Notes: generated by a model not told the origin, from the letters alone. Shown: positions 13,577 to 59,439, counted from the first letter of the stretch. The stretch is 64,000 bases of DNA from Candidatus Omnitrophota bacterium (GCA_038222225.1 JBBRHV010000005.1:1824-65823); one strand, 5' to 3'. Translations and numbers: made by a program.

Positions 13577-13647
<71 letters not shown>

Positions 13648-23626: not shown

Positions 23627-23646
23627 GGTTGTGATATAATACAATT

Positions 23647-32616: not shown

Positions 32617-34251
32617 ATGAACGCATTATTTTTAGTCGGGCTGGTGGTTTTTTTGGGGACCATCAGCGGGAAAGTGTTTCAAAAACTTCACATCCCTCAG
32701 GTGGTCGGTTATATCTTGTTGGGGCTTATTGTCGGGAAATCATCGTTGCATATTTTTGAAGGGCCGATCGTTGATTCTTTGATGCAGGTGGTGAGCTTCA
32801 CGCTGGGGATTATCGGATTCATCATCGGCGGTGAACTGAAGGCCGATGTGTTCAAGCGGTATGGGCGTAGCATTTATGCCATCCTGTTAGGGGAGGGATT
32901 GTTTGCCTTTCTCTTCGTTGCTGTCGCGATTACCTTGATCACGCATAAATTGTATTTGGGCCTGATCTTTGGAGCCATTGCGTCAGCCACTGACCCGGCA
33001 TCAACGATCAATGTCTTATGGGAGTATCGTTCTAAGGGGCCTTTAACCACAACGCTGAGTTCGATTGTGGCCTTGGATGACGGTTTGGCGTTGTTGATTT
33101 ATGGTTTTGCCGTTGTCTTTTCCAAGGCATTGATCACCAAGGCGTCCTTTTCTTTTTTGTCTTCTGTGGCGGGCCCTTTGTGGGAGATCGCTCAATGTCT
33201 GCTGGTGGGTGTTGTGGCGGGGGTGATTGTTTCTAAGACTATTGTACGGATTCGGGAAAAGGATTTGGCCGTGGCGTTTATTTTGGGTGTGATCGCCGTC
33301 GTTGCCGGCGTAGCCTTGTGGTTTGAGTTGGATTTGATCCTTTGCTGTATGTCGTTGGGGGCCACGATCGCGAATTTGATCCCGAATAAGAGCGAAAAGC
33401 TTTTCGCCTCGATCAAGGAAATGAGCGTCGCGTTGTATATTCTGTTCTTTGTTGTGATCGGCGCGCAGCTCGATATTTCGATTTTTTTGAAGTCTTCCCT
33501 GCTTCTGTTGGTGATCGGATATTTGCTTGCCAGAGGATTGGGTAAGGTTTTGGGCGCAACGTTTGGAGGAATGATCGCGCACGCCAGGCCTGAAGTCGTC
33601 CGTTATACGGGATTGGGGCTTTTTACTCAAGGCGGAGTCGCGATGGGCCTGGCTCTATCGGTTGCCCATGGAATTTCGACGATATCGCCTGAGGGGCAGG
33701 AAGCCAGCATATTGATCATGAATGTGGTAGCTGCCACCACATTTATTGTTCAGTTGTTCGGTCCGTCCTGTGTAAAATTTAGTATTTTGAAAGCGCATGA
33801 GGCGTATAAAAATGTGACCAAGGAAGACGTGATTGAATCGTTGAAGGTCAGCGATGTGATGCAGAAAAGTTTTGTGCCGATCCCCGAATGTGCCCCGCTA
33901 GCGGAAGTGATCCGGATCATCAAGAACGAAGAAGCGCATTACTTGCCGGTGATTGACTCGCGCAATCAAAGCATCGGGTCGGTCTCTCTCAACAATATCA
34001 AAGATGCCATTTTAGAAGAAGAGCTGAATAATCTGCTGGTTGCCGGGGATATCGCGATTTTTGATTATTGGGCCATTGCCCAAGACCGTCCGCTGCGGGA
34101 CGCGATTCAGATTTTTGAAGAGCGGTATCTTGATTACCTGCCGGTGATTAAGGCCGAAGGCACAAAAGAAGTGGTTGGGATCTTAGAACATCAGCATTTG
34201 GCCGGGGCCATCAATCGGGAACTGCTGGCCCGCCAGGGTTCTAGCGAATAA
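32617..34251 (+). CDS. Cation/proton antiporter (CPA/Kef-NhaP type) with C-terminal CBS-domain pair
   Basis: Roughly 11-12 TM helices with the Na_H_Exchanger fold, followed by two CBS-like repeats (VSDVMQKSFVPI...; IAIFDYWAIAQDRPLRDAIQIFEE). Confidence 0.8.
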   Translation: MNALFLVGLVVFLGTISGKVFQKLHIPQVVGYILLGLIVGKSSLHIFEGPIVDSLMQVVSFTLGIIGFIIGGELKADVFKRYGRSIYAILLGEGLFAFLFVAVAITLITHKLYLGLIFGAIASATDPASTINVLWEYRSKGPLTTTLSSIVALDDGLALLIYGFAVVFSKALITKASFSFLSSVAGPLWEIAQCLLVGVVAGVIVSKTIVRIREKDLAVAFILGVIAVVAGVALWFELDLILCCMSLGATIANLIPNKSEKLFASIKEMSVALYILFFVVIGAQLDISIFLKSSLLLLVIGYLLARGLGKVLGATFGGMIAHARPEVVRYTGLGLFTQGGVAMGLALSVAHGISTISPEGQEASILIMNVVAATTFIVQLFGPSCVKFSILKAHEAYKNVTKEDVIESLKVSDVMQKSFVPIPECAPLAEVIRIIKNEEAHYLPVIDSRNQSIGSVSLNNIKDAILEEELNNLLVAGDIAIFDYWAIAQDRPLRDAIQIFEERYLDYLPVIKAEGTKEVVGILEHQHLAGAINRELLARQGSSE

Positions 34252-34271
34252 AGCACACACTGCAAAAATAC

Positions 34272-34323
34272 TTGCCATCAGGCCGATTCCAGGTATAATA
34301 TCAAATTGTTAAAAAATTCACGA
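34272..34323 (+). promoter_or_regulatory. rex promoter (TTGCCA-16-TATAAT) with Rex-operator-like site TTGTTAAAAAATTCACGA
   Basis: The -35 is at 34272-34277 and the -10 at 34294-34299. The palindromic site at 34306-34323 resembles the Rex consensus TTGTGAAnnnnTTCACAA. Confidence 0.6.
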
Positions 34324-34342
34324 TTAACTAAGGCAGCGGTGA

Positions 34343-34978
34343 ATGAAAAGATTTCCACAGCGCACTATTATACGGGCTTTTATTTATTTGAGGGCGCTTG
34401 ACGCCCTTATTGAAGACGGGCGGGTGTATGTATCTTCCGGCGAGCTTGCCACAATAACATCGCTCACGGATGTTCAGATCCGTAAAGATATTTCGGCTTT
34501 TGGAAAAGTCGGAAAGCCTCGCGTTGGTTATGATACGCGCCGTTTGAAACAGCTTTTGGAAGAGTTTGTGGTTCAGAATGTTGTTCATGTGGTTTTGTTT
34601 GGGGTTGGAAATTTGGGTTCCGCCATTTTGCGGTATCCCGGATTTCAGGAAGACAAAATTAAGATTGTGGCTGCTTTTGACAGTGACCCGGAAAAAGGCG
34701 ACAAAGCCATTAACGGAATTTCAATCTATCCGCTTGATAAAGCCAAGATGATCATTCAAAAGAAACATGTGGAAATCGGCGTGATCGCTGTTCCCAAACA
34801 AGCCAGTCAGCAGATTGCCGACCTTTTGGTGTCCTGCGGGGTAGAGTGCGTCGTGAATTTTTCACCGACGAATATCAGCGTGCCTAAAGGCACGTTTGTG
34901 AAGAATATTGACCTGGCGGTAGAGTTTTTAGCGCTTTTTTGTGATATGAGTTCAAAGAAGGCCGCTCAACATGCATGA
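34343..34978 (+). CDS. rex: Redox-sensing transcriptional repressor Rex
   Basis: N-terminal winged helix (ELATITSLTDVQIRKDISAFG) and a C-terminal Rossmann NADH-sensing domain (VVLFGVGNLGSAIL). Confidence 0.9.
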   Translation: MKRFPQRTIIRAFIYLRALDALIEDGRVYVSSGELATITSLTDVQIRKDISAFGKVGKPRVGYDTRRLKQLLEEFVVQNVVHVVLFGVGNLGSAILRYPGFQEDKIKIVAAFDSDPEKGDKAINGISIYPLDKAKMIIQKKHVEIGVIAVPKQASQQIADLLVSCGVECVVNFSPTNISVPKGTFVKNIDLAVEFLALFCDMSSKKAAQHA

Positions 34979-35324
34979 GCTTTCCATTGCCAGCGCACTG
35001 ATGGAGCAGATCATTTCGGAAGCGGAAAAGCATGAGCTTTCGCATATCGATGAGGTAGAGATTCATGCTGGCATTTTACGTCAGGTGATTCCCGAGGTCA
35101 TGCAGGAAGCGTTTCGGGAGGTGTCTGTGAAAACAGTTGCGGAAGGTGCGCTCCTGATCATTGTTGAAATTGAAGCGCAGGCCCGTTGCCGGAAATGCCA
35201 AACAGTGTTTGAGCCCACCTTAGATTCTTTTTTGTGTCCGCACTGTCAGATCGCGGATGTGGACATTCTTAAAGGCGACGAGATTATTCTGGCGGCGATC
35301 ATGTCTAACAGCGTAAATTTATAA
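34971..35324 (+). CDS. hypA: Hydrogenase nickel incorporation protein HypA
   Basis: MHELSIA N-terminus (Ni site) and two C-terminal CxxC motifs (CRKC...CPHC). Confidence 0.85.
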   Translation: MHELSIASALMEQIISEAEKHELSHIDEVEIHAGILRQVIPEVMQEAFREVSVKTVAEGALLIIVEIEAQARCRKCQTVFEPTLDSFLCPHCQIADVDILKGDEIILAAIMSNSVNL

Positions 35325-35333
35325 GGATGGATT

Positions 35334-36017
35334 ATGAAAATTAATATTGTGAAAAATGTTTTAAAGGCCAACGACCTGGTGGCGCAGGCGAACCGGAAAA
35401 CTTTTAAGGAGAAGGGTGTCTTGGCGGCGAATTTTATCAGTTCTCCCGGAAGCGGTAAAACCACGCTTCTGGAGAAAACCCTTACGGCTTTAGGGGAGCA
35501 GCAGCATAAGGCAACGGTGATCGTCGGTGATTTGCAGACAACCCGGGATGCGCAGCGGCTGGAGCCGTTTGCTTACCAGGTGGTGCAGATCAACACGGGG
35601 ACGAGCTGTCATTTATATGCCAATCAGGTTGCCGAGAGCCTGCCGAAGCTTGACCTGGAAGCGGTTGAATATGTCTTTATTGAGAATGTGGGCAACATGG
35701 TCTGTCCGGGTGAGTTTGACCTGGGTGAAAACATCAAGGTCATTCTTTTGAGCCTGCCGGAAGGGGACGATAAGGTGGCGAAATACCCGACGATTTTCCG
35801 TGCCGCGGATGTGGTGTTGCTGACAAAGACCGATTTAGAACCGGTGATGTCTTTTGATAAAAAGCAGGTTTATGACGATATTTCGCGTTTGAATGCCAAT
35901 ATTGAGATTATTGAGGTTTCTGCCAAAACAGGAGAAGGACTGTCTTGTTGGGTTGAGTGGCTTAAAAAGAGACGCAAGGAAGGAATTGGCGCACAAGTAA
36001 AGTTTATAACGGAATAG
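35334..36017 (+). CDS. hypB: Hydrogenase nickel incorporation GTPase HypB
   Basis: P-loop GSPGSGKTTLL, CH motif, and G-domain ENVGNMVCP. Confidence 0.9.
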   Translation: MKINIVKNVLKANDLVAQANRKTFKEKGVLAANFISSPGSGKTTLLEKTLTALGEQQHKATVIVGDLQTTRDAQRLEPFAYQVVQINTGTSCHLYANQVAESLPKLDLEAVEYVFIENVGNMVCPGEFDLGENIKVILLSLPEGDDKVAKYPTIFRAADVVLLTKTDLEPVMSFDKKQVYDDISRLNANIEIIEVSAKTGEGLSCWVEWLKKRRKEGIGAQVKFITE

Positions 36018-36043
36018 GCGGGAGGTAGGTGTAAAAAATCTCC

Positions 36044-36101
36044 TTGCAACATAAGGAGAAATTGATATAATAATTTCTTATAATTGTTAAAATTTTCACG
36101 A
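36044..36101 (+). promoter_or_regulatory. hox operon promoter (TTGCAA-16-TATAAT) with second Rex-operator-like site TTGTTAAAATTTTCACGA
   Basis: The -35 is at 36044-36049 and the -10 at 36066-36071. The operator at 36084-36101 is nearly identical to the one upstream of rex. Confidence 0.6.
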
Positions 36102-36160
36102 TTTAAAGGTTGAACCGTAAAGCTCTGTTTAACATTTTGAAAAAAATAAGGGCCTCTCTT

Positions 36161-37975
36161 ATGACTAAAGAACTTCAAAGTACAATTCAAGTAATTTGTA
36201 AACAATGCGGGAATGACAAGGCGCGCATGATGGATGTTATGACCGCGGTTCAGAAAAAGCACGGTTGTATTTCCAGCCAGGCTATGGATTTGATCGCCAA
36301 GCAGCTGAAGGTCGACCGGATCGATGTGGAAAGCGCAGCCACGTTTTATTCATTTTTATCCACAAAGCCTAAGGGCAAAACGGTCATTCGGCTGTGTAAT
36401 GACATTGTTGATATGATGCAGGGCGCAAAGGAAGTTGCGGCTGCGCTTGAGCAGGAGTTGGGCATCAAATTCGGCGAACAAACTCCGGATGGAAACATTT
36501 CATTGGAATACACCCCTTGCATCGGAATGTGCGATCAGGCTCCGGCAGCTTTAATCAATGATGTGGTGATGACCTATTTATCAAGCGACAAGGCTCGGGA
36601 GATCGTGCGTGAGCTCAAGAAACACAATGATCCTAAAAAAATTGCTTGTCGTGTCGGTGATGGCAATAACGCCCATGAGCTTGTGCGCTCCATGGTTCAT
36701 AACGGTTTGCGCAAAAAAGGGGACGTGATTTTTGGTGAGCATGCGGCAAATGGCGGCCTGAAAAAAGCCCTGGGGATCAGCCCGGTTGAGGTCATTCGGG
36801 AAATCAAAACGGCCCGCTTAAGAGGCCGCGGCGGAGCAGGATTTCCGACGGGTATGAAATGGGAATTTACGCGTGCCGCGGAAGGTGAAAAGAAATATGT
36901 TCTCTGTAACGCAGATGAGGGAGAACCGGGAACATTTAAAGACCGGATCCTTTTGACCGAAAAGTATGACCTGATGTTTGAAGGTATGACCATCGGCGCT
37001 TACGCGATCGGGGCGCAAGAAGGCATCGTATATTTGCGGGGTGAATATGCGTATTTGAAAGATTTTTTAAACGCCATGCTTGCCAAAAGACGGGCGGACG
37101 GCTTATTGGGAAAAAATGTTTTAGGCAAAAGTGGTTTTGATTTTGATATCCGGATCCAGCTCGGAGCCGGGGCTTATATTTGCGGGGAAGAAACATCTTT
37201 GATTAGTTCGGCAGAGGGCCTAAGAGGGGATCCTAAGACCCGTCCGCCATTTCCTGCACAAAAGGGATATTTAGGTTGTCCGACAACAGTGAACAATGTG
37301 GAAACATTCTGCTGTGTGGCCCGTATATTAGAGAAGGGAGCCGCATGGTTCTCACAGGTGGGGACACCTGGAAGCCCTGGAACAAAATTATTGAGCGTTT
37401 CCGGCGATTGTGCTAGCCCGGGAATTTACGAGTTTCCCTTTGGGATTAAAGTGGAAGAGATGCTGCAGGCTGTCGGCGCTCAGGATGTACAGGCCGTGTT
37501 GATGGGCGGTCCATCAGGTCAGTTTATTGGGGCAGCGGATTTTAAGCGCGCGATTTGTTATGATGATTTGGCTACGGGCGGTTCAGTGGTAATCTTTAAT
37601 AAGACACGCGACCTGTTGGGGCTCGTCGATTATTACATGGACTTCTTTGTGGAAGAAAGCTGCGGATACTGTACGCCATGCCGTGTCGGCAATGTGTTGT
37701 TGAAAAATGGCGTTGATAAGATCCGCGGGGGCCGGGGGGATTTGGCCGATTTAGCGTATTTAGAGGATCTGGGGAAGTCGATCAAATTGACCAGCCGCTG
37801 CGGTTTAGGGCAGACATCGCCTAATCCGGTGGTAACGACCATTAAGAACTTCCGCGGTATCTATGAAAAAATTATAAAAGAACAGAAGGCGGGCATGATA
37901 TCAACGTTTGATATTCATGACGCGTTGAAGCAGGGCGAAGAAGCATCGGGACGAAAATCAGAGATCTTTAAATAA
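36161..37975 (+). CDS. hoxF: NAD(P)-linked bidirectional [NiFe] hydrogenase diaphorase subunit HoxF (NuoE-like plus NuoF-like fusion)
   Basis: N-terminal thioredoxin-like 2Fe-2S domain, the NuoF FMN/NADH module (GRGGAGFPTGMKW, GAYICGEETSLISSAEG), and a C-terminal 4Fe-4S CxxCxxC. The ATG at 36161 is preferred over the upstream TTG at 36110. Confidence 0.85.
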   Translation: MTKELQSTIQVICKQCGNDKARMMDVMTAVQKKHGCISSQAMDLIAKQLKVDRIDVESAATFYSFLSTKPKGKTVIRLCNDIVDMMQGAKEVAAALEQELGIKFGEQTPDGNISLEYTPCIGMCDQAPAALINDVVMTYLSSDKAREIVRELKKHNDPKKIACRVGDGNNAHELVRSMVHNGLRKKGDVIFGEHAANGGLKKALGISPVEVIREIKTARLRGRGGAGFPTGMKWEFTRAAEGEKKYVLCNADEGEPGTFKDRILLTEKYDLMFEGMTIGAYAIGAQEGIVYLRGEYAYLKDFLNAMLAKRRADGLLGKNVLGKSGFDFDIRIQLGAGAYICGEETSLISSAEGLRGDPKTRPPFPAQKGYLGCPTTVNNVETFCCVARILEKGAAWFSQVGTPGSPGTKLLSVSGDCASPGIYEFPFGIKVEEMLQAVGAQDVQAVLMGGPSGQFIGAADFKRAICYDDLATGGSVVIFNKTRDLLGLVDYYMDFFVEESCGYCTPCRVGNVLLKNGVDKIRGGRGDLADLAYLEDLGKSIKLTSRCGLGQTSPNPVVTTIKNFRGIYEKIIKEQKAGMISTFDIHDALKQGEEASGRKSEIFK

Positions 37976-37995
37976 TCTAACTATAAGGGATCGTT

Positions 37996-38709
37996 ATGAG
38001 CGACAAAACATTGACATTTACAATTGACGGAGTTGAAGTAAAGGGCTGCCCCGGGCAGACCATCATGCAGGTGGCCGATGAGGCAGGGATTTATATTCCG
38101 CGCCTGTGTTATTGGGACGGGTTAAAGCCGCACGGAAGTTGCCGTTTGTGTACGGTGCTGGTCAATGGACGTCCGCAAGCGGCCTGCACACAGCCGATCG
38201 CGCAGGGGATGGCCGTTGAGCACAACACCGAAGAGCTCAAAGAGCGTCGCCGGGATATTGTGGACATGCTGTTTGTCGAAGGCAATCATTTTTGTATGGT
38301 TTGTGAGAAAAGTGGCAATTGCGAGCTTCAGGCCCAGGCCTATCGTTTGGGAATTGTAGCTCCGAAATATCCATTTCAGTTTCCGGTGTGCACGGTGGAT
38401 GCAACGCATCCGGATATTTTTATTGACCGCAATCGCTGCATTTTGTGCGGACGATGTGTTCAGGCCTCGATCGATTTAGACGGAAAACATGTTTTTGATT
38501 TTGTAGGCCGCGGCAAGAATAAAAGAATCGCGGTTAATGCCGAAGCCCGTTTGGCTGATACAGATCTGGACATTACGGACAAGGCAACTGAAGTGTGCCC
38601 GGTTGGGGCGATTATTAAGAAGCGTGTCGGGTATGCAATACCGGTGGGCCAGCGCCTTTATGACAAAAAGCCTATCGGCTCTGACATTGAAGCGAAACAA
38701 ACAAAGTAA
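37996..38709 (+). CDS. hoxU: Hydrogenase diaphorase iron-sulfur subunit HoxU (NuoG N-terminal-like)
   Basis: 2Fe-2S ferredoxin (CRLC) and 4Fe-4S motifs (CILCGRC, CEKSGNC). Confidence 0.85.
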   Translation: MSDKTLTFTIDGVEVKGCPGQTIMQVADEAGIYIPRLCYWDGLKPHGSCRLCTVLVNGRPQAACTQPIAQGMAVEHNTEELKERRRDIVDMLFVEGNHFCMVCEKSGNCELQAQAYRLGIVAPKYPFQFPVCTVDATHPDIFIDRNRCILCGRCVQASIDLDGKHVFDFVGRGKNKRIAVNAEARLADTDLDITDKATEVCPVGAIIKKRVGYAIPVGQRLYDKKPIGSDIEAKQTK

Positions 38710-38728
38710 CCGTTTTGAACAAGGATTT

Positions 38729-39280
38729 ATGATCATGGAAAAACCCAAAGTTGCAACAGCGTCATTGGCCGGATGTTTTGGTTGTCATATGTCGATCTTG
38801 GACATTGATGAACGGATCTTACAGCTCATTGAGCTGGTGGATTTCGACAAGTCCCCCATCGACGATATCAAAGAATTTACCGGTCGTTGCCGGATCGGTT
38901 TGATCGAAGGTGGATGTTCAACCGAAGAGAATGTTCATGTGCTGCAAAAATTCCGTAAGAACTGCGATATTCTCATCTCAGTCGGTGAATGCGCGATTAC
39001 TGGCGGAGTTCCGGCCATGCGCAATGGCATTCCCCTCAAGGAATGCTTGGAGGAGGCGTATCTTAACGGACCGACGGTCTACAATCCCGCAAGAACGCTG
39101 CCGAAGGATCCCGAAATTCCTTTATGTTTGGATCAGGTGTATCCGTGTCATCATGTGGTTAAGATTGATTATCATCTTCCGGGCTGTCCGCCGTCTGCGG
39201 ATTTGATCTGGGAGGCATTGGTTGCGCTGCTGAGCGACAAACCGATAGAATTGCCGTATGAACTTATTAAGTACGATTAA
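38729..39280 (+). CDS. hoxY: [NiFe] hydrogenase small subunit HoxY
   Basis: ASLAGCFGCHMS proximal cluster motif. About 183 aa, typical of a group 3 small subunit. Confidence 0.8.
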   Translation: MIMEKPKVATASLAGCFGCHMSILDIDERILQLIELVDFDKSPIDDIKEFTGRCRIGLIEGGCSTEENVHVLQKFRKNCDILISVGECAITGGVPAMRNGIPLKECLEEAYLNGPTVYNPARTLPKDPEIPLCLDQVYPCHHVVKIDYHLPGCPPSADLIWEALVALLSDKPIELPYELIKYD

Positions 39281-39298
39281 TCAAAATGGAGATGTGCT

Positions 39299-40735
39299 GT
39301 GGATAGAAAAAATTTAAAACGAGTTGTTATTGAACCGGTGACCCGCGTTGAAGGTCACGGGAAGGTTTCAATTCTTCTTGATGAAAATGATATTGTTCAG
39401 CAGGCCAGACTTCATATTGTGGAATTCCGGGGGTTTGAGCGGTTTGTGAAAGGGCGTCCGTATTGGGAAGTTCCGGTCATGATCCAGCGTTTATGCGGGA
39501 TCTGTCCGGTCAGCCATCACCTGTGTGCGGCGAAGGCCATGGACCGCATTGTCGGCGGTGAGAATTTGACTCCGACGGCGGAAAAGATCCGGCGCTTGAT
39601 GCATTACGGCCAGACATTTCAATCGCATGCATTGCATTTTTTTCATTTGGTTTCACCTGATTTGCTGTTTGGATTTGAGGCTGATCCGGCGATCCGCAAT
39701 GTGATCGGCGTAGCCAAGAAGTTTCCGGAGTTGGCCGTTCAAGGCGTGATGATGCGCAAATACGGCCAGGAAATTATTAAAGCCACGGCAGGCAAAAAGA
39801 TCCACGGCACCGGGGCGGTTCCGGGTGGGGTCAATAAGAACTTGTCCATCTCCGAGCGCGATGCGCTTTTAAAGGATTTAGATCAAATGGTGATTTGGGC
39901 CAGAAGCGCTTTGAAGCTGGCTAAAGAATATACGGTAACAAATTTTGATAAAGTTAAGGATTTTGGTTCTTTTGATTCGAACCATTTAGGCCTTGTGCGT
40001 GAGGATGGATGTTTGGATTTATATAACGGAAATCTGCGTGCGGTGGATTCTCAAGGCAATACGATTTTTGATCAGGTCAATCCTTTGGATTATGCCGAGC
40101 ATTTGGCTGAAGAGGTCAAGGATTGGTCGTACATGAAGTTTCCGTTCATCAAAAAGATCGGTCCGGAAAACGGATGGTATCGAGTCGGACCGTTGGCGCG
40201 CATCAATATCTGTGATTTTATCGATACGCCGGAAGCGGAAAAAGAACGCCAGGAATTTAAAGCGTTGACCAACGGCAAACCGAACAATATCACGATGGCC
40301 TATCATTGGACGCGTATGATCGAAACACTGCATTCGATCGAAAAAATTAAAGAGCTTCTTCATGATCCGGATTTGCAGGGCACGGATCTGGTGGTTAAGG
40401 GCAAGCGCCGTGAAGAGACGGTCGCCATCCTCGAGGCTCCGAGAGGAACATTGTTCCATCATTATAAAGTGAACAAAGATGATCAGGTCGTGATGGCGAA
40501 TTTGATCGTTTCAACGACCAGCAATAATGAGCCGATGAACCGTGCGGTTCAGCGTGTGGCCAAAGATTCGCTGAACGGAAAAGTCATTACCGAAGGGCTT
40601 TTGAACCATATTGAAGTGGCTATCCGCGCTTATGATCCGTGCTTGTCATGCGCGACACATGCGCTTGGTCAGATGCCGCTGGTGGTCAGCCTGTTTGATC
40701 ATGAAGGCAATCTGCTTGATAAAAAGGTGAAGTAA
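39299..40735 (+). CDS. hoxH: [NiFe] hydrogenase large subunit HoxH
   Basis: N-terminal L1 motif RLCGICPVSHH and C-terminal L2 motif DPCLSCATHA. Confidence 0.9.
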   Translation: MDRKNLKRVVIEPVTRVEGHGKVSILLDENDIVQQARLHIVEFRGFERFVKGRPYWEVPVMIQRLCGICPVSHHLCAAKAMDRIVGGENLTPTAEKIRRLMHYGQTFQSHALHFFHLVSPDLLFGFEADPAIRNVIGVAKKFPELAVQGVMMRKYGQEIIKATAGKKIHGTGAVPGGVNKNLSISERDALLKDLDQMVIWARSALKLAKEYTVTNFDKVKDFGSFDSNHLGLVREDGCLDLYNGNLRAVDSQGNTIFDQVNPLDYAEHLAEEVKDWSYMKFPFIKKIGPENGWYRVGPLARINICDFIDTPEAEKERQEFKALTNGKPNNITMAYHWTRMIETLHSIEKIKELLHDPDLQGTDLVVKGKRREETVAILEAPRGTLFHHYKVNKDDQVVMANLIVSTTSNNEPMNRAVQRVAKDSLNGKVITEGLLNHIEVAIRAYDPCLSCATHALGQMPLVVSLFDHEGNLLDKKVK

Positions 40736-40737
40736 TC

Positions 40738-41205
40738 ATGCCGGTGGGACAATCATCCAGAGTGCTGGTCATCGGCTTTGGAAATCCCGGAAGGCTGGAT
40801 GACGGTTTAGGCCCGGCCTTGGCAGCAGAGCTCGAGGTTTTAAATCTTTCTGATGTCACGGTAGACGCTAATTATCAGCTGACCGTTGAGGATTCCGATG
40901 CAGTTAAAGATCATGATGTGGTGATCTTTGCCGATGCATCGGTGGATTGCCGGGAGCCATTTGAATTTTATCCGATCCTTCCTGAGGCTAAAACGCACTT
41001 TTCAAGTCATTTCTTGGCGCCGGAAGACGTGTTGGGGCTGGCGCAGGACGCTTTTTCCGCCCGCACACGGGGTTTTGTGCTGGCGATCCGCGGTTATGAA
41101 TTTAATGAATTTGGTGAAAGGCTTTCACAGCAGGCAGCGACTAATCTACAGGCAGCAAAGCAGTTCTTAGTGGACCGTATTCAGAAACGGGATTTTGACA
41201 GCTAA
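40738..41205 (+). CDS. hoxW: Hydrogenase maturation endopeptidase (HoxW/HycI family)
   Basis: 155 aa with the LVIGFGNPGRLDDGLG motif, immediately after the large subunit. Confidence 0.8.
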   Translation: MPVGQSSRVLVIGFGNPGRLDDGLGPALAAELEVLNLSDVTVDANYQLTVEDSDAVKDHDVVIFADASVDCREPFEFYPILPEAKTHFSSHFLAPEDVLGLAQDAFSARTRGFVLAIRGYEFNEFGERLSQQAATNLQAAKQFLVDRIQKRDFDS

Positions 41206-41233
41206 CGGAAGAACTTTTCACAGGAGAATAATC

Positions 41234-41608
41234 ATGCAAGACGGAAAACATGTGATTTTGGTTATTGATGATGAGCAGGATATTTTAAAGGTCGTTCAGG
41301 CGTTTCTTGAAAATCACGGCTATTCTGTTTTAACAGCCAGCTCCGCCGAAGAAGGTGTAAAGATTTATAAAAAGGGGCACCCGGACCTGATCATCGTCGA
41401 TTTAATGATGGAAGAGGTTGATGCCGGGGTGAATTTTGTTAAAGAGGTAAAATTATTGGGAAATACAGCGTCGGTTTATCTTTTGAGCGGCGCAGGTGAT
41501 AGCATGGCGGATAGTATTGATTATGAGGCAATGGGCTTTAGCGGTGTTTTTCAAAAACCCATTGACCGCCAGCGCCTGTTGAGTACGATTCATTCAAAAT
41601 TATCCTAA
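41234..41608 (+). CDS. Stand-alone CheY-like response regulator receiver domain
   Basis: DD acidic pocket, phospho-acceptor Asp in IIVDLMM, and conserved Lys in FQKP. About 124 aa with no output domain. The RBS is aggaga. Confidence 0.75.
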   Translation: MQDGKHVILVIDDEQDILKVVQAFLENHGYSVLTASSAEEGVKIYKKGHPDLIIVDLMMEEVDAGVNFVKEVKLLGNTASVYLLSGAGDSMADSIDYEAMGFSGVFQKPIDRQRLLSTIHSKLS

Positions 41609-41687
41609 GACTACGTCTGAGTATGAGAATGCCTTCCTTTGAAGCGCCATCCAATCGGACGCGCTGTTCTTCAATGGACATAATGCT

Positions 41688-43994
41688 ATGAAGGATCCTT
41701 TTGCCAATACAACGCGGTTGCGTATCCTGATCCGGGGGGCAGTTCAGGGCGTCGGATTCCGCCCGACGGTTTTTCGTTTGGCGAAAGAGCGCGGTCTTTT
41801 CGGTTGGGTGCGTAATACAACGCACGGTGTGATCATTGAAGCCGAAGGACCGGAAACAAAGTGCCGAGAATTTTTATCATCCCTTCATATCGAAAAACCT
41901 GTTCATGCATTCTTTCAAAGCCTCGAGGTGTCTTATCTGGATCCCGCAGGATATCAAGATTTCCAAATTCTGGAGAGTGAACCAGGGGAGCCGACAGCTC
42001 TGATTTTGCCTGACCTGGCGATGTGTCTGCAGTGCCGGGCCGATATTTCCGATCCCAAGAATAGTCGTTACCGTTATCCGTTCACTAATTGTACGCAATG
42101 CGGCCCGCGATACAGTATTATGGAAGCGCTTCCCTATGACCGCATCCACACAACAATGAAAAATTTTCAGATGTGTCCGCAGTGTGAAAACGAATATCAC
42201 GATCCGCATAACCGGCGCTTTCATGCCCAGCCTAACGCCTGTCCTGCTTGCGGACCTCAGGTTGAGCTTTGGGATTCGAAAGGAACTGTTCTTGAACGGA
42301 ACGATGCGGCGATAATGATGGCCGAGCATGAAATTTTGAAGGGGAAGATCGTTGCGCTAAAGGGGCTGGGAGGTTTCCAGCTAGCCGTCGATGCGCGCAA
42401 TGCAGAAGCGGTCAAGCGGCTGCGACAGCGCAAACACCGTTCGGCAAAGCCCTTTGCGGTGATGTTCCCGGATTTAAAATCTGTTGAGCGGGAGTGTCAT
42501 GTTTCTGATGAAGAGAAACGTCTTTTGACTTCGGGAGCCGCTCCGATTGTTTTATTGGAAAAACGCGCTGCCTGCGTTTGTAAAGAGGCGGCCCCAGGCA
42601 ATCCTTATCTCGGCGTGATGCTCCCCTATACGCCGCTGCATCATCTTGTGATGTCTGATCTGCAAATCCCGGTTGTTATGACCAGCGGAAATGTTTCGGA
42701 GGATCCGATGTGCATCGATGAACAGCAGGCGTTGGAGGACTTAAAAAATATTGCCGAGGCGTTTCTTGTTCACAACCGTCCGATCGCGCGCGCGGTGGAT
42801 GATTCCGTCGCTCGCATTGTTTTAAATCGGGAATTGATTTTGCGCCGGGCGCGAGGGTATGCCCCATTGCCGATCCTGATTCGGTCTGATGGAAATGACT
42901 TTGACGCGGTTGCGGTCGGCGCGCATTTAAAAAATGCAGTCGCCGTTAAGAAGGGAAAAAATATTTTTTTGAGTCAGCATATTGGAGATCTTGAGACGGA
43001 ACCTTCTTATGAGGCTTTTGTGCGCACGATCACCGATTTGAAGACCATGTATGCTGTTAAGCCACAAGCGGTTTTCTGTGACCGTCATCCGGATTATTTA
43101 TCGACTCAATATGCCCGCAAACAGCAGGCGGCGCCGATCGAGATTCAGCATCACGTGGCGCATGTTTTTTCCTGCATGGCGGAAAACGATCTTACCGCCC
43201 CCGTGTTGGGCGTGGCCTGGGACGGCACCGGATATGGCTTGGACAACACGGTGTGGGGCGGAGAGTTTTTTGAGATTCAAGAGAAAAGCATAACGCGGAC
43301 GGCGTCGTTGCGGCCTTTTCCGCTTCCCGGCGGGGAAAAAGCGGTTCTTGAGCCGCGCCGTTGCGCGCTCGGTCTGTTATACGAGTCATCACGCGGGCAT
43401 GTGGAGTATTACCAGGATATGGAATTTTTAAAATGTTTTTCTGAAACAGAGCTGAAGAATCTCATTCAAATTCTGCGCAATCAAAAGCAGTCTCCTTTTA
43501 CCTCAAGCGTGGGGCGCCTTTTTGATGCGGTGGCATCGTTTGTGGGCATCCGGCAGGTTTTGGAATTTGAAGGGCAGGCGGCGATGGAGGTTGAGTTTGC
43601 GGCAGAGAGAGCGCATTCTGAAAATTACTATCAATATGAGCTGACGGAGAAGGATCAACGGGACAGTCCGTATTCGGCGCAGCGGCAGGTGGATATTGCG
43701 TTGATCGATGCGGTTTCCTCTGATTTAAAAAATGGTGTGGCAACAGATGAGATCTGCGGCCGTTTTCATAACACATTGGTAGAGGCGCTGGTTTCGGTGG
43801 CAAGGCGCGCAAAGATTTCGAAAGTCGTTTTAAGCGGAGGCTGTTTTCAGAACCGCTACCTTTTGGAACGGGCGGTCCGGCGTTTAAAGGAGGATGGTTT
43901 TCATCCCTATTGGCATCAGCGCATTCCGCCCAACGACGGCGGGATCGCGCTTGGCCAGATCGCGGCGGGCTTGGGACAACGGCAATGGGTGTGA
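41688..43994 (+). CDS. hypF: Carbamoyltransferase HypF
   Basis: Acylphosphatase domain, two CxxC-x18-CxxC zinc fingers, and YrdC- and Kae1-like domains, over 768 aa. Confidence 0.95.
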   Translation: MKDPFANTTRLRILIRGAVQGVGFRPTVFRLAKERGLFGWVRNTTHGVIIEAEGPETKCREFLSSLHIEKPVHAFFQSLEVSYLDPAGYQDFQILESEPGEPTALILPDLAMCLQCRADISDPKNSRYRYPFTNCTQCGPRYSIMEALPYDRIHTTMKNFQMCPQCENEYHDPHNRRFHAQPNACPACGPQVELWDSKGTVLERNDAAIMMAEHEILKGKIVALKGLGGFQLAVDARNAEAVKRLRQRKHRSAKPFAVMFPDLKSVERECHVSDEEKRLLTSGAAPIVLLEKRAACVCKEAAPGNPYLGVMLPYTPLHHLVMSDLQIPVVMTSGNVSEDPMCIDEQQALEDLKNIAEAFLVHNRPIARAVDDSVARIVLNRELILRRARGYAPLPILIRSDGNDFDAVAVGAHLKNAVAVKKGKNIFLSQHIGDLETEPSYEAFVRTITDLKTMYAVKPQAVFCDRHPDYLSTQYARKQQAAPIEIQHHVAHVFSCMAENDLTAPVLGVAWDGTGYGLDNTVWGGEFFEIQEKSITRTASLRPFPLPGGEKAVLEPRRCALGLLYESSRGHVEYYQDMEFLKCFSETELKNLIQILRNQKQSPFTSSVGRLFDAVASFVGIRQVLEFEGQAAMEVEFAAERAHSENYYQYELTEKDQRDSPYSAQRQVDIALIDAVSSDLKNGVATDEICGRFHNTLVEALVSVARRAKISKVVLSGGCFQNRYLLERAVRRLKEDGFHPYWHQRIPPNDGGIALGQIAAGLGQRQWV

Positions 43995-44038
43995 TATAAT
44001 GCCGTTTTACAGGTGGCATTTTAAAAAGAGGGTGTGGA

Positions 44039-44284
44039 ATGTGTTTAGCGGTTCCCGGAAAAATTGTAGAGATCATCAATGACGATCCGCTGGAGCGCTC
44101 CGGAAAGGTCAGCTTCGGCGGCATTACCCGTGAAGTCAATTTGGCCTGTGTTCCTGAGGCCAACCCCGGCGAGTATGTTATTGTCCATGTTGGCATGGCC
44201 TTAAGCGTGGTTGATGAAGCGGAAGCACAGCAGATGTTAGAGTATATTCAGTCGGAAGACGACCTTCGCAAAGAGGGACTATGA
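44039..44284 (+). CDS. hypC: Hydrogenase maturation factor HypC
   Basis: [13 protein letters not shown]-terminus. Confidence 0.85.
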
Positions 44285-45369
44285 AATATATTGATGAATA
44301 TCGAGATGCGGGGCTTGTGAAGACTCTGGCCGAAAAGGTGAGGCGCGTTGTGACGCGGCCATGGACGATCATGGAAGTTTGCGGCGGGCAGACGCATGCC
44401 ATTATCAAGTTCGGCATTGATCAGATTTTGCCTAAAGAAATCACGCTGGTTCACGGCCCCGGATGCCCGGTGTGCGTGACATCCGTTGAGGCCATTGATC
44501 AGGCGGTGTTTATCGCAGCCCAGCCCAATGTGATTTTTTGTTCGTTCGGTGACATGTTGAGGGTTCCGGGAACAAAAAAAGATTTGTTGACCGTTAAAGC
44601 TGAGGGCGGGGATGTGCGCAGCGTGTATTCTCCGATGGACGCGGTCGCAATCGCTCAAAAAAATCCAGAGCGCCACGTTGTTTTTTTTGCTGTTGGATTT
44701 GAAACAACCGCTCCGGCCAACGCCAGCGCTATTCATTATGCGCAGGTGCATCAGGTGACAAATATGTCGTTTTTAGTTTCGCATGTTTTGGTTCCGCCGG
44801 TGATCGAGGCGGTTGTTTCATCAAAGAACAATCATATTCAGGGATTTCTGGCCGCTGGACATGTCTGCACGGTGATGGGCTATCATCAATACGAGCGTTT
44901 GGCGAGAGATTATCACATTCCGATCGTGGTGACCGGGTTTGAGCCGCTGGATATTCTGCAGGGGGTTCTGGCGTGCGTGACCCAGCTTGAGAAGGGGGAG
45001 ACGCGTGTTGAAAATGAATATGCCCGTGTTGTGCGCGCCGAAGGAAATCTGCTCGCGCAGGAGATCATGAAAAAAGTGTTTCAGCTTTCCGATCAGAAAT
45101 GGCGGGGGTTGGGAGTTATTCCCGATAGCGGTTTAAAATTGGCAGACAGTTATAACGCGTATGACGCACAAGTTGTGTTTGATGTCAGTCATATTCAGGC
45201 GGAGGAAAATCCGGAGTGTCAGGCAGGCCAGATTCTGCAGGGCTTGAAGAAGTCGGTGGAATGTCCGGCTTTTGGAACGCGTTGCACACCCGAGCATCCG
45301 TTGGGCGCGCCGATGGTGTCTTCCGAAGGCGCCTGCGCGGCGTATTATAAATACAGGAAAAGACACTAA
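44281..45369 (+). CDS. hypD: Hydrogenase maturation factor HypD
   Basis: CGGQTHA, GPGCPVC and CPVC Fe-S motifs. Confidence 0.95.
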
Positions 45370-45545
45370 GACACCGGGCAGTTTCTAGTGTTATAGTGTC
45401 TTAGCCCTGCGGAATTCGCAGAATTCCCGGGATTGGTCTCCCACGCAAAATAAAATTTTGAATGGGACATTATCTTGGCAAATCTGTGATTTGCTCAAGG
45501 CTAAGACAAGCTTTCAGTTTGTGTAGGATATCCTGGTGTCTTTTA
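45362..45545. repeat. Copies of the CTAAGACAC/GTGTCTTAG motif family in the hypD-hypE intergenic region
   Basis: agacactaagacacc lies at the hypD 3' end, and the inverted pair ctaagacac(21 nt)gtgtcttag follows. Further copies are ggctaagacaag and ggtgtctttt, the same motif as in the 27.7-27.96 kb array. Confidence 0.45.
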
Positions 45546-45558
45546 TAAGGAAACACAA

Positions 45559-46593
45559 ATGTTTAATTGTCCGATCCCGAAATCTGATCACGAAAAAATT
45601 TTACTTGGCCATGGTAGCGGCGGAGTCTTGATGCATCAGCTGATTGAAAAAGTTTTTAAAAAGACTTTTGAGAATCCGCTGCTTGCTCAAAATCATGACA
45701 GCACAGTTCTGGACTTTTCTGGAGCAAGGCTGGCCGTCACCACGGATTCCTATGTTATTCATCCGTTGTTTTTTCCCGGCGGGGATATTGGTTCCTTGGC
45801 GGTGCACGGGACAGTGAACGATCTGGCCATGTCCGGCGCCAAGCCGCTGTATCTGACGGTGGGATTTATTTTGGAAGAAGGGTTTGCGGTCGAAGATTTG
45901 CGGCGCATTGTTCAGTCCATGCAGAACGCAGCAGAGGAATCCAATATTCAGATCATTGCCGGCGACACCAAGGTCGTGGATCGCGGCAAAGGCGACGGGG
46001 TCTTTATTAACACAACCGGTATCGGAGTTGTTGAGCATGCCTTAAATATTTCTCCGCGCAGCGTTCAGCCTGGGGATGCGATCATTTTAAGTGGGGATAT
46101 CGGTCGGCACGGCATTGCGATCATGGCCCAACGGGAAGGTTTGCAGTTTGAATCCACCATTGAGAGTGATTCGGCATCTTTGTCAGCCATGATTCTTCCG
46201 CTTTTTCAAAAAAAGATTGATGTTCATTGTTTGCGTGATTTAACCCGTGGCGGGCTGGCCACCGCACTTAATGAGATCGCGCAAGATTCAGGTTTTCACA
46301 TCACGATTGAAGAGAACGAAATCCGCGTGGAGGAACAGGTCCGCGGCGCATGTGAGATCTTAGGCCTGGATCCGCTTTATGTCGCTAACGAAGGGCGCTG
46401 CATTGTTTTTGTTCCGGCTGAGCAGGCCGCAGAGACGCTTTCCACTTTAAGGGAGCATCAGCAAGGCCGGCAGGCGGTCGCGATCGGCTGTGTCTCTGAG
46501 ATACAAGACAAGCGGGTGACTTTAAAAAGTTCGCTAGGCACGGTCCGCATTATTGATATGCTTTCCGGCGAACAGCTTCCGCGGATTTGCTGA
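45559..46593 (+). CDS. hypE: Hydrogenase maturation factor HypE
   Basis: AIR-synthase-like fold with the C-terminal PRIC cysteine. Confidence 0.95.
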
Positions 46594-46691
46594 TTCAAAG
46601 GGCGCTGGTTTTTTATACTTGACAAATGCAAAGAAAATTGTATACTTTAGCTAGTTAATCAACTTAGTCTGGATTTTGTTGGGGAGGTAGC

Positions 46692-47114: not shown

Positions 47115-47169
47115 AAAAATTTTAACTTTAATATTACTAAAATAGTCAACAAGATAAGGTAGGTGGAAA

Positions 47170-47391: not shown

Positions 47392-47417
47392 GAAATTTAA
47401 AATAGGATTTTAGAGTT

Positions 47418-49030: not shown

Positions 49031-49032
49031 TC

Positions 49033-50865: not shown

Positions 50866-50887
50866 GGAAAGAGAGGGACTTCGTCAC

Positions 50888-55381: not shown

Positions 55382-55384
55382 AGA

Positions 55385-59424: not shown

Positions 59425-59439
59425 AGAGTCGGCGGAACA

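What the first reader, a model, noticed from the sequence alone, without database searches (positions are those of the whole stretch)
34272..46593. Rex-controlled NAD-linked bidirectional [NiFe] hydrogenase locus with a complete hyp maturation set
The interval holds rex, hypA, hypB, hoxF, hoxU, hoxY, hoxH, hoxW, a receiver protein, then hypF, hypC, hypD and hypE, all co-directional. Two nearly identical palindromic sites sit upstream of rex (TTGTTAAAAAATTCACGA) and of hoxF (TTGTTAAAATTTTCACGA). Both closely resemble the Rex operator consensus TTGTGAAnnnnTTCACAA, and both overlap or follow sigma70-like promoters. This predicts NADH/NAD+-responsive control, with autoregulation, of a cytoplasmic group-3 hydrogenase. 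HoxF here is a NuoE-NuoF fusion with no separate HoxE. That matches the soluble-hydrogenase arrangement rather than the cyanobacterial five-subunit type.
Basis: partly seen in the sequence, partly recalled or inferred. Interest (0 to 1): 0.7.

Follow-up and report, generated by a model that had tools for sequence, protein, structure and literature searches.

The report
Rex-repressed NAD-linked hydrogenase gene cluster
This is an intact gene cluster for an NAD-linked hydrogen-producing/consuming enzyme, with all its assembly genes, that very probably is switched on by the redox sensor Rex when NADH builds up. The wiring is sensible and conserved, and it extends a known type of regulation rather than revealing a new one.

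Summary
All 13 genes are intact and co-directional. The two 18-mers sit exactly where stated (34306-34323 and 36084-36101), each just downstream of one of the three best sigma-70-like promoters in the region.

HoxH is a group 3d (SH-type) [NiFe] hydrogenase. Its best solved relative is the Hydrogenophilus NAD-reducing hydrogenase, and an 80%-identical Omnitrophota orthologue is published as group 3d.

Comparative genomics supports the Rex interpretation:
- rex-hypAB-hoxFUYHW is conserved in 7 of 8 distinct Omnitrophota-type contigs, which have differing flanks.
- The box T[TC]GTT-N6-TTCACGA lies downstream of the hoxF promoter in 9 of 9 distinct loci, and upstream of rex wherever rex has its own promoter.
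- The box is the most conserved stretch of both upstream regions.
- Unrelated Rex paralogues and Rex-like boxes accompany hoxF in Bacteroidota and Spirochaetota, with about 100-fold enrichment.

Binding and NADH response remain untested. Rex control of [FeFe] and Ech hydrogenases is already established, so this is a new member of a known kind.

Two refinements and one extra:
- The NuoE-like domain of HoxF lacks a complete cluster motif.
- The Rex may be a hox-dedicated paralogue.
- A 124-aa receiver is a conserved, unexplained sixth gene of this hox operon type in at least 8 phyla.

The parts
34272..34299 (+). Promoter-like site P_rex (TTGCCA-16-TATAAT)
   Evidence: 11/12 matches, joint best in 34000-47200. 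An equivalent TTGnnn-N16/17-TATAAT is seen upstream of rex in L081, L083 and L089.
34306..34323 (+). Rex-like operator 1, TTGTTAAAAAATTCACGA. It starts 7 nt after the -10 and so covers the predicted transcription start.
   Evidence: Conserved upstream of rex in L081, L083, L085 and L089. It is the most conserved 14-mer block of the rex upstream region.
34343..34978 (+). rex, redox-sensing repressor (211 aa)
   Evidence: PF06971 + PF02629. NF003995, 198 bits (cut-off 126). PDB Rex 5zz5, 3ikt, 1xcb and 2vt2 at E about 1e-31 to 1e-32; GVGNLG Rossmann motif present.
34971..35324 (+). hypA (Ni metallochaperone). Its start overlaps the rex stop by 8 nt, so it is co-transcribed with rex.
   Evidence: PF01155, E 8.6e-27. 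Coordinates.
35334..36017 (+). hypB (Ni-insertion GTPase)
   Evidence: TIGR00073, 264.6 bits (cut-off 121.2).
36044..36071 (+). Promoter-like site P_hox (TTGCAA-16-TATAAT with an extended-10 TG)
   Evidence: 10/12 matches plus TG. An equivalent promoter precedes the box in all relatives.
36084..36101 (+). Rex-like operator 2, TTGTTAAAATTTTCACGA. It starts 13 nt after the -10 and lies 60 nt upstream of the hoxF ATG.
   Evidence: T[TC]GTT[AC]N5TTCACGA is present upstream of hoxF in 9/9 distinct Omnitrophota-type loci. It is the most conserved 14-mers of the region.
36161..37975 (+). hoxF, diaphorase subunit (604 aa): degenerate NuoE-like domain fused to a NuoF-like FMN/NAD(H)/[4Fe-4S] module
   Evidence: three Pfam domains; best PDB hit 5xf9_A, E 3.3e-107, over residues 38-572; the CX4C motif is replaced by C-N-D-I-V-D. 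The start is taken from relatives, which are 603-605 aa.
37996..38709 (+). hoxU, NuoG-like Fe-S subunit
   Evidence: Fer2_4, NADH-G_4Fe-4S_3, Fer4_Nqo3; the best NCBIfam model is HoxU NF005745, at 204 bits, below its cut-off of 333.
38729..39280 (+). hoxY, hydrogenase small subunit (about 183 aa)
   Evidence: PF01058; translation. Relatives are 181-183 aa.
39299..40735 (+). hoxH, [NiFe] large subunit (478 aa) with RLCGICPVSHH and DPCLSCATH motifs and a 24-residue C-terminal extension
   Evidence: 5xf9_D, E 1.8e-168; that chain ends at the His aligned to H454. PF27537 (HoxH) on all relatives. PMC8542988 assigns the Ca. Aceula enzyme to group 3d.
40738..41205 (+). hoxW, large-subunit C-terminal maturation protease
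   Evidence: TIGR00072, 58.5 bits (cut-off 47.45). Conserved after hoxH in most loci.
41234..41608 (+). Stand-alone receiver-domain protein (124 aa), a conserved sixth gene of this hox operon type
   Evidence: PF00072; sequence; 27 loci, with DD/D/S/K conserved; homologues picked through the receiver alone are all hoxW-adjacent.
41688..43994 (+). hypF (carbamoyltransferase)
   Evidence: five HypF domains.
44039..44284 (+). hypC
   Evidence: PF01455, E 7.4e-26.
44281..45369 (+). hypD
   Evidence: PF01924, E 2.4e-154.
45370..45558 (+). hypD-hypE spacer that folds into one long hairpin (function unknown)
   Evidence: -69.8 kcal/mol, z -5.9, 0/200 shuffles as stable; unrelated long inverted repeats sit at the same place in L082, L086 and L087.
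45559..46593 (+). hypE
   Evidence: TIGR02124, 476 bits (cut-off 251.6).

Best explanation
The interval is a two-promoter regulon unit of a probable Omnitrophota bacterium. The first transcript is P_rex-rex-hypA-hypB. The second is P_hox-hoxFUYHW-receiver-hypFCDE. Together they encode a cytoplasmic group 3d (SH-type, HoxFUYH) NAD(H)-linked [NiFe] hydrogenase and its full maturation machinery.

Proposed mechanism (inferred from the established Rex mechanism):
1. At a low NADH/NAD+ ratio, a Rex dimer occupies an 18-bp imperfect palindrome placed over or just after each transcription start. It blocks initiation, and at P_hox it also blocks read-through.
2. When NADH accumulates, NADH binding in the Rossmann domains releases Rex. 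This derepresses the structural genes, the nickel-insertion genes and rex itself.
3. The matured enzyme then re-oxidises NADH with H2 evolution. This lowers NADH and restores repression, so the circuit is a negative-feedback redox valve.

Shown here: gene identities, operator sequence, operator position relative to promoters, operator conservation, and recurrent rex-hox linkage.

Inferred: Rex binding, NADH response, operon boundaries, and the direction of catalysis in vivo.
For: - Gene identities.
- The two identical-type boxes exceed chance. They lie 7 and 13 nt downstream of near-consensus -10 elements.
- The rex-hypAB-hoxFUYHW arrangement is conserved in 7 of 8 distinct Omnitrophota-type contigs with differing flanks.
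- The box is present upstream of hoxF in 9/9 distinct loci, and upstream of rex in 5 of the 6 loci where rex has its own promoter (a sixth, L088, is degenerate).
- In the 8 relatives (about 162 kb), 13 of the 14 matches to the clade pattern are at those two places.
- An unbiased 14-mer footprint puts the conservation maximum on the boxes.
- Rex-like boxes are 34-fold to about 100-fold enriched in the 300 nt upstream of hoxF across 71-72 loci.
- Rex proteins only 26-36% identical to this one sit next to hoxF, with such boxes, in Bacteroidota and Spirochaetota. This points to repeated recruitment.
- The left half-site TTGTTAA equals the published clostridial Rex half-site (PMC8457756 and PMC5367854).
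- Rex repression of hydrogenase operons and of rex itself is demonstrated by EMSA and DAP-seq in other bacteria (PMC6391272; PMC8457756).
- Published Omnitrophota genome analysis infers that the 3d enzyme disposes of fermentative reductant as H2 (PMC8542988).
Against: - There is no binding or expression data, and the organism is uncultured.
- Both operators deviate from perfect dyad symmetry: TTGTTAA on the left against TCGTGAA (the reverse complement of TTCACGA) on the right. The left half is variable among relatives.
- Many hoxFUYHW loci have neither rex nor a box (Planctomycetota, Acidobacteriota, proteobacteria), so the control is lineage-specific.
- The core TGTGA-N6-TCACA is shared with CRP-type sites.
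- Group 3d enzymes are reversible. H2 uptake would turn the loop into positive feedback.
- Only 64 kb of the genome is visible, so whether this Rex is local or global is unknown.
Confidence: 0.75

Rival explanations
1. Same genes and same Rex control, but the enzyme works mainly as an H2-uptake, NAD+-reducing hydrogenase, as in Cupriavidus and Hydrogenophilus SH. Rex derepression would then give a feed-forward loop: H2 oxidation raises NADH, which releases Rex, which gives more hydrogenase. It would not be a redox valve.
For: The closest solved relative is an NAD+-reducing, H2-oxidising enzyme (5xf9). Group 3d enzymes are bidirectional (established knowledge).
Against: - Omnitrophota with this enzyme are predicted fermenters that use it to dissipate reductant (PMC8542988).
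- Relatives place it beside fermentative trimeric [FeFe] hydrogenases.
- Known Rex regulons derepress NADH-consuming pathways (PMC6391272, PMC8457756).
- The window shows no respiratory or CO2-fixation partner for H2-derived NADH.
Confidence: 0.15
2. The boxes are operators of another regulator that recognises TGTNA-N6-TNACA-type palindromes, for example a CRP/FNR-family protein. On this reading the adjacent rex is incidental.
For: The Rex consensus contains the CRP core TGTGA-N6-TCACA (visible directly in the sequences). No binding data exist.
Against: - rex is the gene immediately downstream of box 1 and is linked to hox in three phyla through non-orthologous paralogues.
- Box flavour changes with the Rex lineage: TTCACGA with the Omnitrophota Rex clade, TTAACAA in Bacteroidota, and ATGTGAA...TTCACAT with the second Rex of L085.
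- No CRP/FNR gene lies in the cluster.
Confidence: 0.06
3. The two 18-mers are non-functional AT-rich promoter-proximal sequence that resembles the Rex consensus by chance. On this reading hox is constitutive or controlled through the receiver protein.
For: Each site has 2 mismatches to the consensus. Across the 64-kb window, sites with up to 3 mismatches are not enriched (8 found against 5.1 expected).
Against: - 0/100 shuffles give two matches to the shared pattern.
- The pattern is conserved in 9/9 distinct orthologous hoxF upstream regions although the surrounding sequence is unalignable.
- 13 of the 14 matches in the relatives fall at these two positions.
Confidence: 0.03

Closest known systems
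Rex regulons that include hydrogenase operons: Caldicellulosiruptor bescii and Clostridium thermocellum (PMC6391272, PMC8457756). Rex autoregulation was first shown in Streptomyces coelicolor.
   Same: - An NADH/NAD+-sensing Rex repressor.
- An 18-bp palindromic operator of the TTGT[GT]AA-N4-TT[CA]ACAA type at the promoter.
- Hydrogenase structural and maturation genes, and rex itself, as targets.
   Different: - The target here is a group 3d NAD-linked [NiFe] enzyme plus hyp genes, not [FeFe] Hyd or membrane-bound Ech.
- rex is physically fused into the hydrogenase cluster, co-transcribed with hypAB.
- The operator is a conserved hybrid, TTGTT...TTCACGA.
- The host is an Omnitrophota-like Gram-negative, not a Firmicute.
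- I found no paper linking Rex to Hox.
NAD+-reducing soluble [NiFe] hydrogenase HoxFUYH of Hydrogenophilus thermoluteolus (PDB 5xf9) and Cupriavidus necator
   Same: - Four-subunit HoxFUYH architecture.
- HoxF has an N-terminal NuoE-like domain without a complete [2Fe-2S] motif.
- L1 and L2 Cys motifs are present.
- There is a HoxW-type protease.
- These are the best PDB matches for HoxH and HoxF.
   Different: - Those enzymes serve aerobic H2 oxidation and, to my knowledge, are controlled by HoxA/HoxJ/HoxBC H2 sensing.
- Here control is by Rex, in an apparently anaerobic fermenter.
- There is no HoxI.
- A receiver-domain gene follows hoxW.
Cyanobacterial bidirectional hydrogenase HoxEFUYH
   Same: Group 3d, NAD(P)H/ferredoxin-linked, reversible, used as an electron valve.
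   Different: - The cyanobacterial enzyme has a separate HoxE with a [2Fe-2S] cluster. Here the NuoE-like module is fused to HoxF and is degenerate.
- Cyanobacterial hox is controlled by LexA and AbrB-like factors (my knowledge), not by Rex.
Electron-bifurcating [NiFe] hydrogenase HydABCSL of Acetomicrobium mobile (PDB 7t2r)
   Same: It is the second-best solved match for HoxH (E 8e-154) and for the NuoF module.
   Different: - 7t2r_B aligns only to residues 201-576 of HoxF.
- The window HoxF ends 28 residues after that and has no extra C-terminal ferredoxin domains. It has no separate, cluster-bearing NuoE-like subunit.
- Bifurcation is therefore not expected.

Membership tests
Rex (redox-sensing transcriptional repressor) | N-terminal winged-helix DNA-binding domain plus C-terminal NAD(H)-binding Rossmann domain with GxGxxG | tested here: met
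   PF06971 (residues 5-51) and PF02629 (82-175); the alignment shows GVGNLGS and QIRKDISAFG, matching Rex 5zz5 and 3ikv.
Rex (redox-sensing transcriptional repressor) | Scores above the curated family threshold | tested here: met
   NF003995 at 198 bits (cut-off 126), NF003994 at 196 (130), NF003996 at 184 (138).
Rex (redox-sensing transcriptional repressor) | DNA binding relieved by NADH | not testable with these tools
   Needs EMSA or SPR with purified protein, with and without NADH and NAD+.
Rex operator (ROP box) | An 18-bp inverted repeat close to TTGTGAAN4TTCACAA or TTGTTAAN4TTAACAA | tested here: met
   both sites have 2 mismatches to the general consensus. The left half equals the clostridial half-site (PMC8457756).
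Rex operator (ROP box) | Placed so as to occlude a promoter, and conserved upstream of orthologous genes | tested here: met
Group 3d NAD-coupled [NiFe] hydrogenase (HoxFUYH) | Large subunit with N-terminal RxCGxCxxxH and C-terminal DPCxxCxxH Ni-Fe ligand motifs and a cleavable C-terminal extension | tested here: met
   the alignment shows RLCGICPVSHH and DPCLSCATH; 24 residues follow H454.
Group 3d NAD-coupled [NiFe] hydrogenase (HoxFUYH) | Closest to characterised 3d enzymes rather than to 3a, 3b, 3c or groups 1, 2, 4 | tested here: met
   bit scores: 564 (5xf9_D SH), 516 (7t2r), 398 (MvhA, 3c), about 110 (3b, 3a, group 1). An 80%-identical Ca. Aceula orthologue is published as 3d. No formal HydDB or tree classification was run.
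Group 3d NAD-coupled [NiFe] hydrogenase (HoxFUYH) | NuoF-like FMN/NAD(H) subunit and NuoG-like Fe-S subunit encoded together with the small and large subunits | tested here: met
Group 3d NAD-coupled [NiFe] hydrogenase (HoxFUYH) | H2:NAD+ oxidoreductase activity | not testable with these tools
   Needs an enzyme assay.
Complete Hyp maturation set | hypA, B, C, D, E, F plus a specific endopeptidase | tested here: met
   all seven are present as intact ORFs.
Response-regulator receiver (CheY-like) | Acidic pair, phospho-acceptor Asp, Thr/Ser and Lys of the active site | tested here: met
   IDDE, IVDLMM, LLSG and FQKP are conserved across 28 sequences. Phosphorylation itself was not testable.

The most novel reading that the evidence does not exclude
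The hox-linked Rex is not the cell's global Rex. It is a dedicated paralogue with its own operator flavour (TTGTT-N6-TTCACGA), insulated from a second Rex that governs the [FeFe] hydrogenase, as seen in L085. In addition, the conserved 124-aa receiver encoded after hoxW is a phosphorylation-controlled partner of the HoxFUYH enzyme or of its maturation. NAD-linked H2 metabolism in many uncultured anaerobes would then be set by two layers: NADH sensing at transcription, and a two-component input at the protein level.
Probability: 0.25. Interest if true: 0.6.

Novelty: new member of a known kind. Interest (0 to 1): 0.35.

Why it matters
It gives a concrete, testable regulatory logic for the commonest cytoplasmic [NiFe] hydrogenase of several uncultured anaerobic phyla (Omnitrophota, Bacteroidota, Spirochaetota). 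H2 release would be tied directly to the NADH/NAD+ ratio. This helps in interpreting metatranscriptomes and H2 fluxes in anoxic sediments and lakes.

It also supplies defined operator/repressor pairs for NADH-responsive expression systems.

The hox-specific receiver protein, present in more than 2000 sequences at E <= 1e-15, is an unstudied component. It could reveal post-translational control of a soluble hydrogenase.

Tried and rejected
- The primary comparative Rex paper (Ravcheev 2012) is not held in the library. Its consensus sequences are therefore cited second-hand from PMC6391272, PMC8457756 and PMC5367854. I could not check whether it, or RegPrecise, already lists hox targets.
- Look-up of the window's own HoxH (P0001) found no record. 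Taxonomy is therefore inferred only from source names of close HoxH relatives and from synteny with L081.
- A third pattern match inside rex (34851-34868, minus strand) has only one good half-site. It lies in the codons of the conserved NFSP motif. The mismatch scan of the relatives' loci listed no match inside their rex genes. I treated it as chance.
- An Rfam scan found no RNA family in the cluster.
- BLAST of the hypD-hypE hairpin found no other copy in the window or in the loci held at that point (L001-L089), so it is not a repeated mobile element there.
- Electron bifurcation was considered because 7t2r is the second-best hit. I rejected it because the extra Fe-S domains are missing.
- The strict Rex consensus initially missed the spirochaete boxes. 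A core-palindrome search recovered them.

Full report
**1. Observation**

ORF listing plus Pfam and NCBIfam scans confirm thirteen intact, co-directional genes:
- rex 34343-34978
- hypA 34971-35324, which overlaps the rex stop by 8 nt
- hypB 35334-36017
- hoxF, hoxU 37996-38709, hoxY about 38729-39280, hoxH 39299-40735
- hoxW 40738-41205. Pfam found nothing for it, but TIGR00072 scores 58.5 bits against a cut-off of 47.45.
- a receiver-domain gene
- hypF 41688-43994, hypC 44039-44284, hypD 44281-45369 and hypE 45559-46593

Two starts need correcting against the mechanical ORFs:
- hoxF begins at the ATG at 36161 (604 aa; relatives are 603-605 aa).
- The receiver begins at the ATG at 41234, behind an AGGAG (124 aa).

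No separate hoxE and no second hydrogenase is present in the window.

The two 18-mers are exactly as quoted, at 34306-34323 and 36084-36101. None of 100 dinucleotide-preserving shuffles gave two matches to their shared pattern. Each sits just downstream of a near-consensus promoter:
- TTGCCA-16-TATAAT at 34272-34299. The box starts 7 nt after the -10.
- TTGCAA-16-(TG)TATAAT at 36044-36071. The box starts 13 nt after the -10.

**2. What the proteins are**

Rex:
- It scores above the curated cut-off of three NCBIfam Rex models.
- It aligns end to end with crystallised Rex proteins of Thermotoga, Thermus and Bacillus at E about 1e-31 to 1e-32.
- The alignment includes the QIRKD recognition segment and the GxGxxG Rossmann motif.

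HoxH:
- Its best solved relative is the NAD+-reducing soluble hydrogenase of Hydrogenophilus thermoluteolus (5xf9_D, 564 bits, E 1.8e-168).
- Next come the Acetomicrobium NiFe enzyme (516 bits) and Mvh/3c (398 bits). Groups 3a, 3b and 1 score about 110 bits or less.
- The RLCGICPVSHH and DPCLSCATH ligand motifs are present.
- The mature 5xf9 chain ends at the His aligned to H454. This leaves a 24-residue extension here, the expected HoxW substrate (an inference from established [NiFe] maturation).

The nearest database relatives (80-94% identity) come from Omnitrophota/PVC MAGs. One of them, Ca. Aceula lacicola (P0061, 80%), is published as carrying a group 3d hydrogenase that is inferred to vent fermentative reductant as H2 (PMC8542988).

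HoxF:
- It matches 5xf9_A over residues 38-572.
- Its NuoE-like domain has C-N-D-I-V-D in place of CX4C, but it keeps CIGMC.
- Across 77 homologues none has the canonical four-Cys motif, and several have also lost the last Cys.
- 'NuoE-NuoF fusion, SH-type, no HoxE' is therefore correct, but the NuoE-like module is probably cluster-less, as in the solved SH.
- HoxF has no extra C-terminal ferredoxin domains, so the bifurcating HydABCSL type is unlikely.

**3. Are the boxes real operators?**

I collected two sets of loci: 80 hoxH loci from GTDB species genomes, and eight distinct contigs carrying the closest HoxH relatives, plus one near-duplicate, L084.

In the close set:
- rex-hypA-hypB-(CBS)-hoxFUYHW-(receiver)-hypFCDE recurs in 7 of 8 distinct contigs, although the flanking genes differ.
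- Upstream of hoxF, all nine distinct loci (window included) show a TTGnnn-16/17-TATAAT-like promoter followed within 7 nt or more by T[TC]GTT[AC]N5TTCACGA. The surrounding sequence is not alignable.
- Upstream of rex the same kind of box is present in the window, L081, L083, L085 and L089. It is degenerate in L088.
- In L082 and L086, rex abuts an upstream gene and has no promoter of its own.
- A search that knows nothing of the motif (best-match mismatch of every 14-mer against the seven non-trivial relatives) puts the conservation maximum on the boxes: 2.0-2.9 mismatches against a regional mean of 4.8 for hoxF, and 2.75-3.25 against 5.5 for rex.
- In the eight relatives (about 162 kb), 13 of the 14 matches to the clade pattern lie at these two positions.

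**4. Beyond the clade**

- Across 72 loci with a usable hoxF upstream region, a half-site scoring scheme finds 28 boxes in 21.6 kb upstream, against 56 in 1.45 Mb elsewhere. That is a 34-fold enrichment.
- The strict core TGT[GT]A-N6-T[AC]ACA gives 22 hits in 21.3 kb against 15 in 1.44 Mb, about 100-fold.
- The carriers are Bacteroidota (TTGT[GT]AA-N4-TTAACAA, usually 35-80 nt before the ATG) and Spirochaetota (CTGTTATTTTTTTAACAG right after a TATAAT in L007 and L008; TGTGAGGATTATCACA in L004).
- rex lies within about 1 kb of hoxF in six Bacteroidales loci (same strand) and three spirochaete loci (divergent).
- L032 reproduces the two-box layout: box-rex-box-hoxF.
- These Rex proteins are only 26-36% identical to the window's Rex and fall into at least two different Rex groups. 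The rex-hox partnership therefore seems to have been assembled repeatedly, which argues for function.
- Planctomycetota, Acidobacteriota, proteobacterial and other loci have neither rex nor a box. The control is lineage-specific.

**5. Mechanism**

Steps taken from established Rex biology:
- Rex binds 18-bp palindromes of consensus TTGTGAAN4TTCACAA, or TTGTTAAN4TTAACAA in Clostridiaceae.
- It represses until NADH/NAD+ rises.
- It commonly autoregulates and controls hydrogenase operons. This was validated by EMSA and DAP-seq in C. bescii and C. thermocellum (PMC6391272; PMC8457756; PMC5367854).

Applied here:
- Rex would sit over +1 of P_rex, and just downstream of +1 of P_hox.
- Rising NADH would derepress rex-hypAB and hoxFUYHW-receiver-hypFCDE.
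- The enzyme would oxidise NADH to H2 and close a negative-feedback loop.

The direction of catalysis is the weakest inference. The enzyme class is reversible, and its nearest solved homologue is an H2 oxidiser. I favour H2 evolution because of the predicted fermentative lifestyle. In relatives the cluster is also co-located with trimeric [FeFe] hydrogenases.

**6. Local or global Rex?**

L085 encodes two Rex proteins:
- The hox-linked one is 59% identical to the window's Rex and has TTGTT...TTCAC[GA]A boxes.
- The second is 30% identical. It is followed by a Cache histidine kinase and a trimeric [FeFe] hydrogenase, and it is preceded by ATGTGAATATATTCACAT and ATGTGAAAGGAATCACAA.

This suggests paralogue-specific operators and a hox-dedicated Rex. 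With only 64 kb of this genome available, it cannot be settled. No further box occurs in the window apart from one poor intragenic match.

**7. The receiver**

- The 124-aa receiver has all the phospho-acceptor residues.
- At 39-82% identity, it is the gene after hoxW in 27 loci. These come from Planctomycetota, Verrucomicrobiota, Spirochaetota, Acidobacteriota, Methylomirabilota, Myxococcota, Latescibacterota, Lentisphaerota and Omnitrophota.
- More than 2000 homologues exist at E <= 1e-15, almost all of 124 aa.
- Three homologues chosen through the receiver alone all sit at the end of hoxFUYHW operons. These three share synteny, so they count as one independent case.
- No paper mentioning such a component was found.
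- Its role is unknown. A phosphorylation-dependent partner of the enzyme, or of its maturation, is the most interesting possibility.

**8. Known or new?**

- Group 3d hydrogenases in Omnitrophota are known, and so are Rex-controlled hydrogenase operons with Rex autoregulation.
- Full-text searches for Rex together with hox, hoxFUYH, group 3d or Omnitrophica returned nothing relevant.
- The key comparative Rex paper and RegPrecise could not be consulted.
- I therefore class the finding as a new member of a known kind.
A specialist would expect an NADH-linked hydrogenase to be a natural Rex target.

Interest is 0.35. It is raised slightly by two results: conservation of the wiring across three phyla, and the unexplained hox-specific receiver.

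Noticed in passing
window 41234-41608; also L001-L024, L079, L081, L083, L085, L090-L092 just after hoxW: A 124-aa stand-alone receiver with canonical phospho-acceptor residues is a conserved sixth gene of the hoxFUYHW operon in at least 8 phyla. More than 2000 homologues exist. No cognate kinase is present in this window, and no literature was found.
   Followed up: partly
window 45370-45558 (hypD-hypE spacer): The 189-nt spacer folds into one long hairpin (-69.8 kcal/mol, z -5.9). L082, L086 and L087 carry unrelated long inverted repeats at the same position. There is no Rfam hit and no other copy in the window or in the loci held at that point (L001-L089). It could be a processing, termination or stabilising element.
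   Followed up: partly
window 36161-36700 (HoxF N-terminal domain): The NuoE-like domain has C-N-D-I-V-D instead of CX4C but keeps CIGMC (3 Cys plus a conserved Asp). The whole SH-type HoxF family lacks the canonical four-Cys [2Fe-2S] motif.
   Followed up: yes
L085 12419-19436: A relative carries a second Rex paralogue, only 30% identical to the hox-linked one. It has differently flavoured boxes (ATGTGAATATATTCACAT, ATGTGAAAGGAATCACAA). It lies upstream of a Cache histidine kinase and a trimeric NuoE/NuoF/HydA [FeFe] hydrogenase.
   Followed up: partly
L007 6799-6816, L008 6797-6814, L004 6666-6681: Spirochaete MAGs have rex divergent from hoxF, with perfect core palindromes in the shared spacer (CTGTTATTTTTTTAACAG; TGTGAGGATTATCACA). 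The strict consensus search missed these.
   Followed up: yes
window 34851-34868 (minus strand), inside rex: TCGGTGAAAAATTCACGA matches the clade pattern with one mismatch, but it has only one good half-site and lies in the codons of the conserved NFSP motif. It is probably chance.
   Followed up: partly
window 1443-9101: gyrB, dnaN and dnaA are on the minus strand, followed by yidC on the plus strand. The 6745-7385 spacer is therefore a candidate replication origin.
   Followed up: no
window 23643-23799: 6S RNA (Rfam RF00013, 77 bits). Four tRNA genes lie at 13577-14152 and 30627-30697.
   Followed up: no
window 46619-60714: Directly downstream of hypE there is a strong promoter (TTGACA-16-TATACT) and an Rrf2-family regulator. 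After these come cysH-like, cysD-like and cysN/C genes, siroheme and tetrapyrrole genes (hemA, cobA/hemD, hemB, hemL), a sulfite reductase and a GltD-like oxidoreductase. Together they form an assimilatory sulfate-reduction block.
   Followed up: no
L082 3615-4025, L086 3074-3490; L088 6205-6648, L089 6229-6672: In some relatives a NikR nickel regulator lies two genes upstream of rex. In others a CBS-pair protein gene is inserted between hypB and hoxF, with the Rex box staying directly upstream of hoxF.
   Followed up: no
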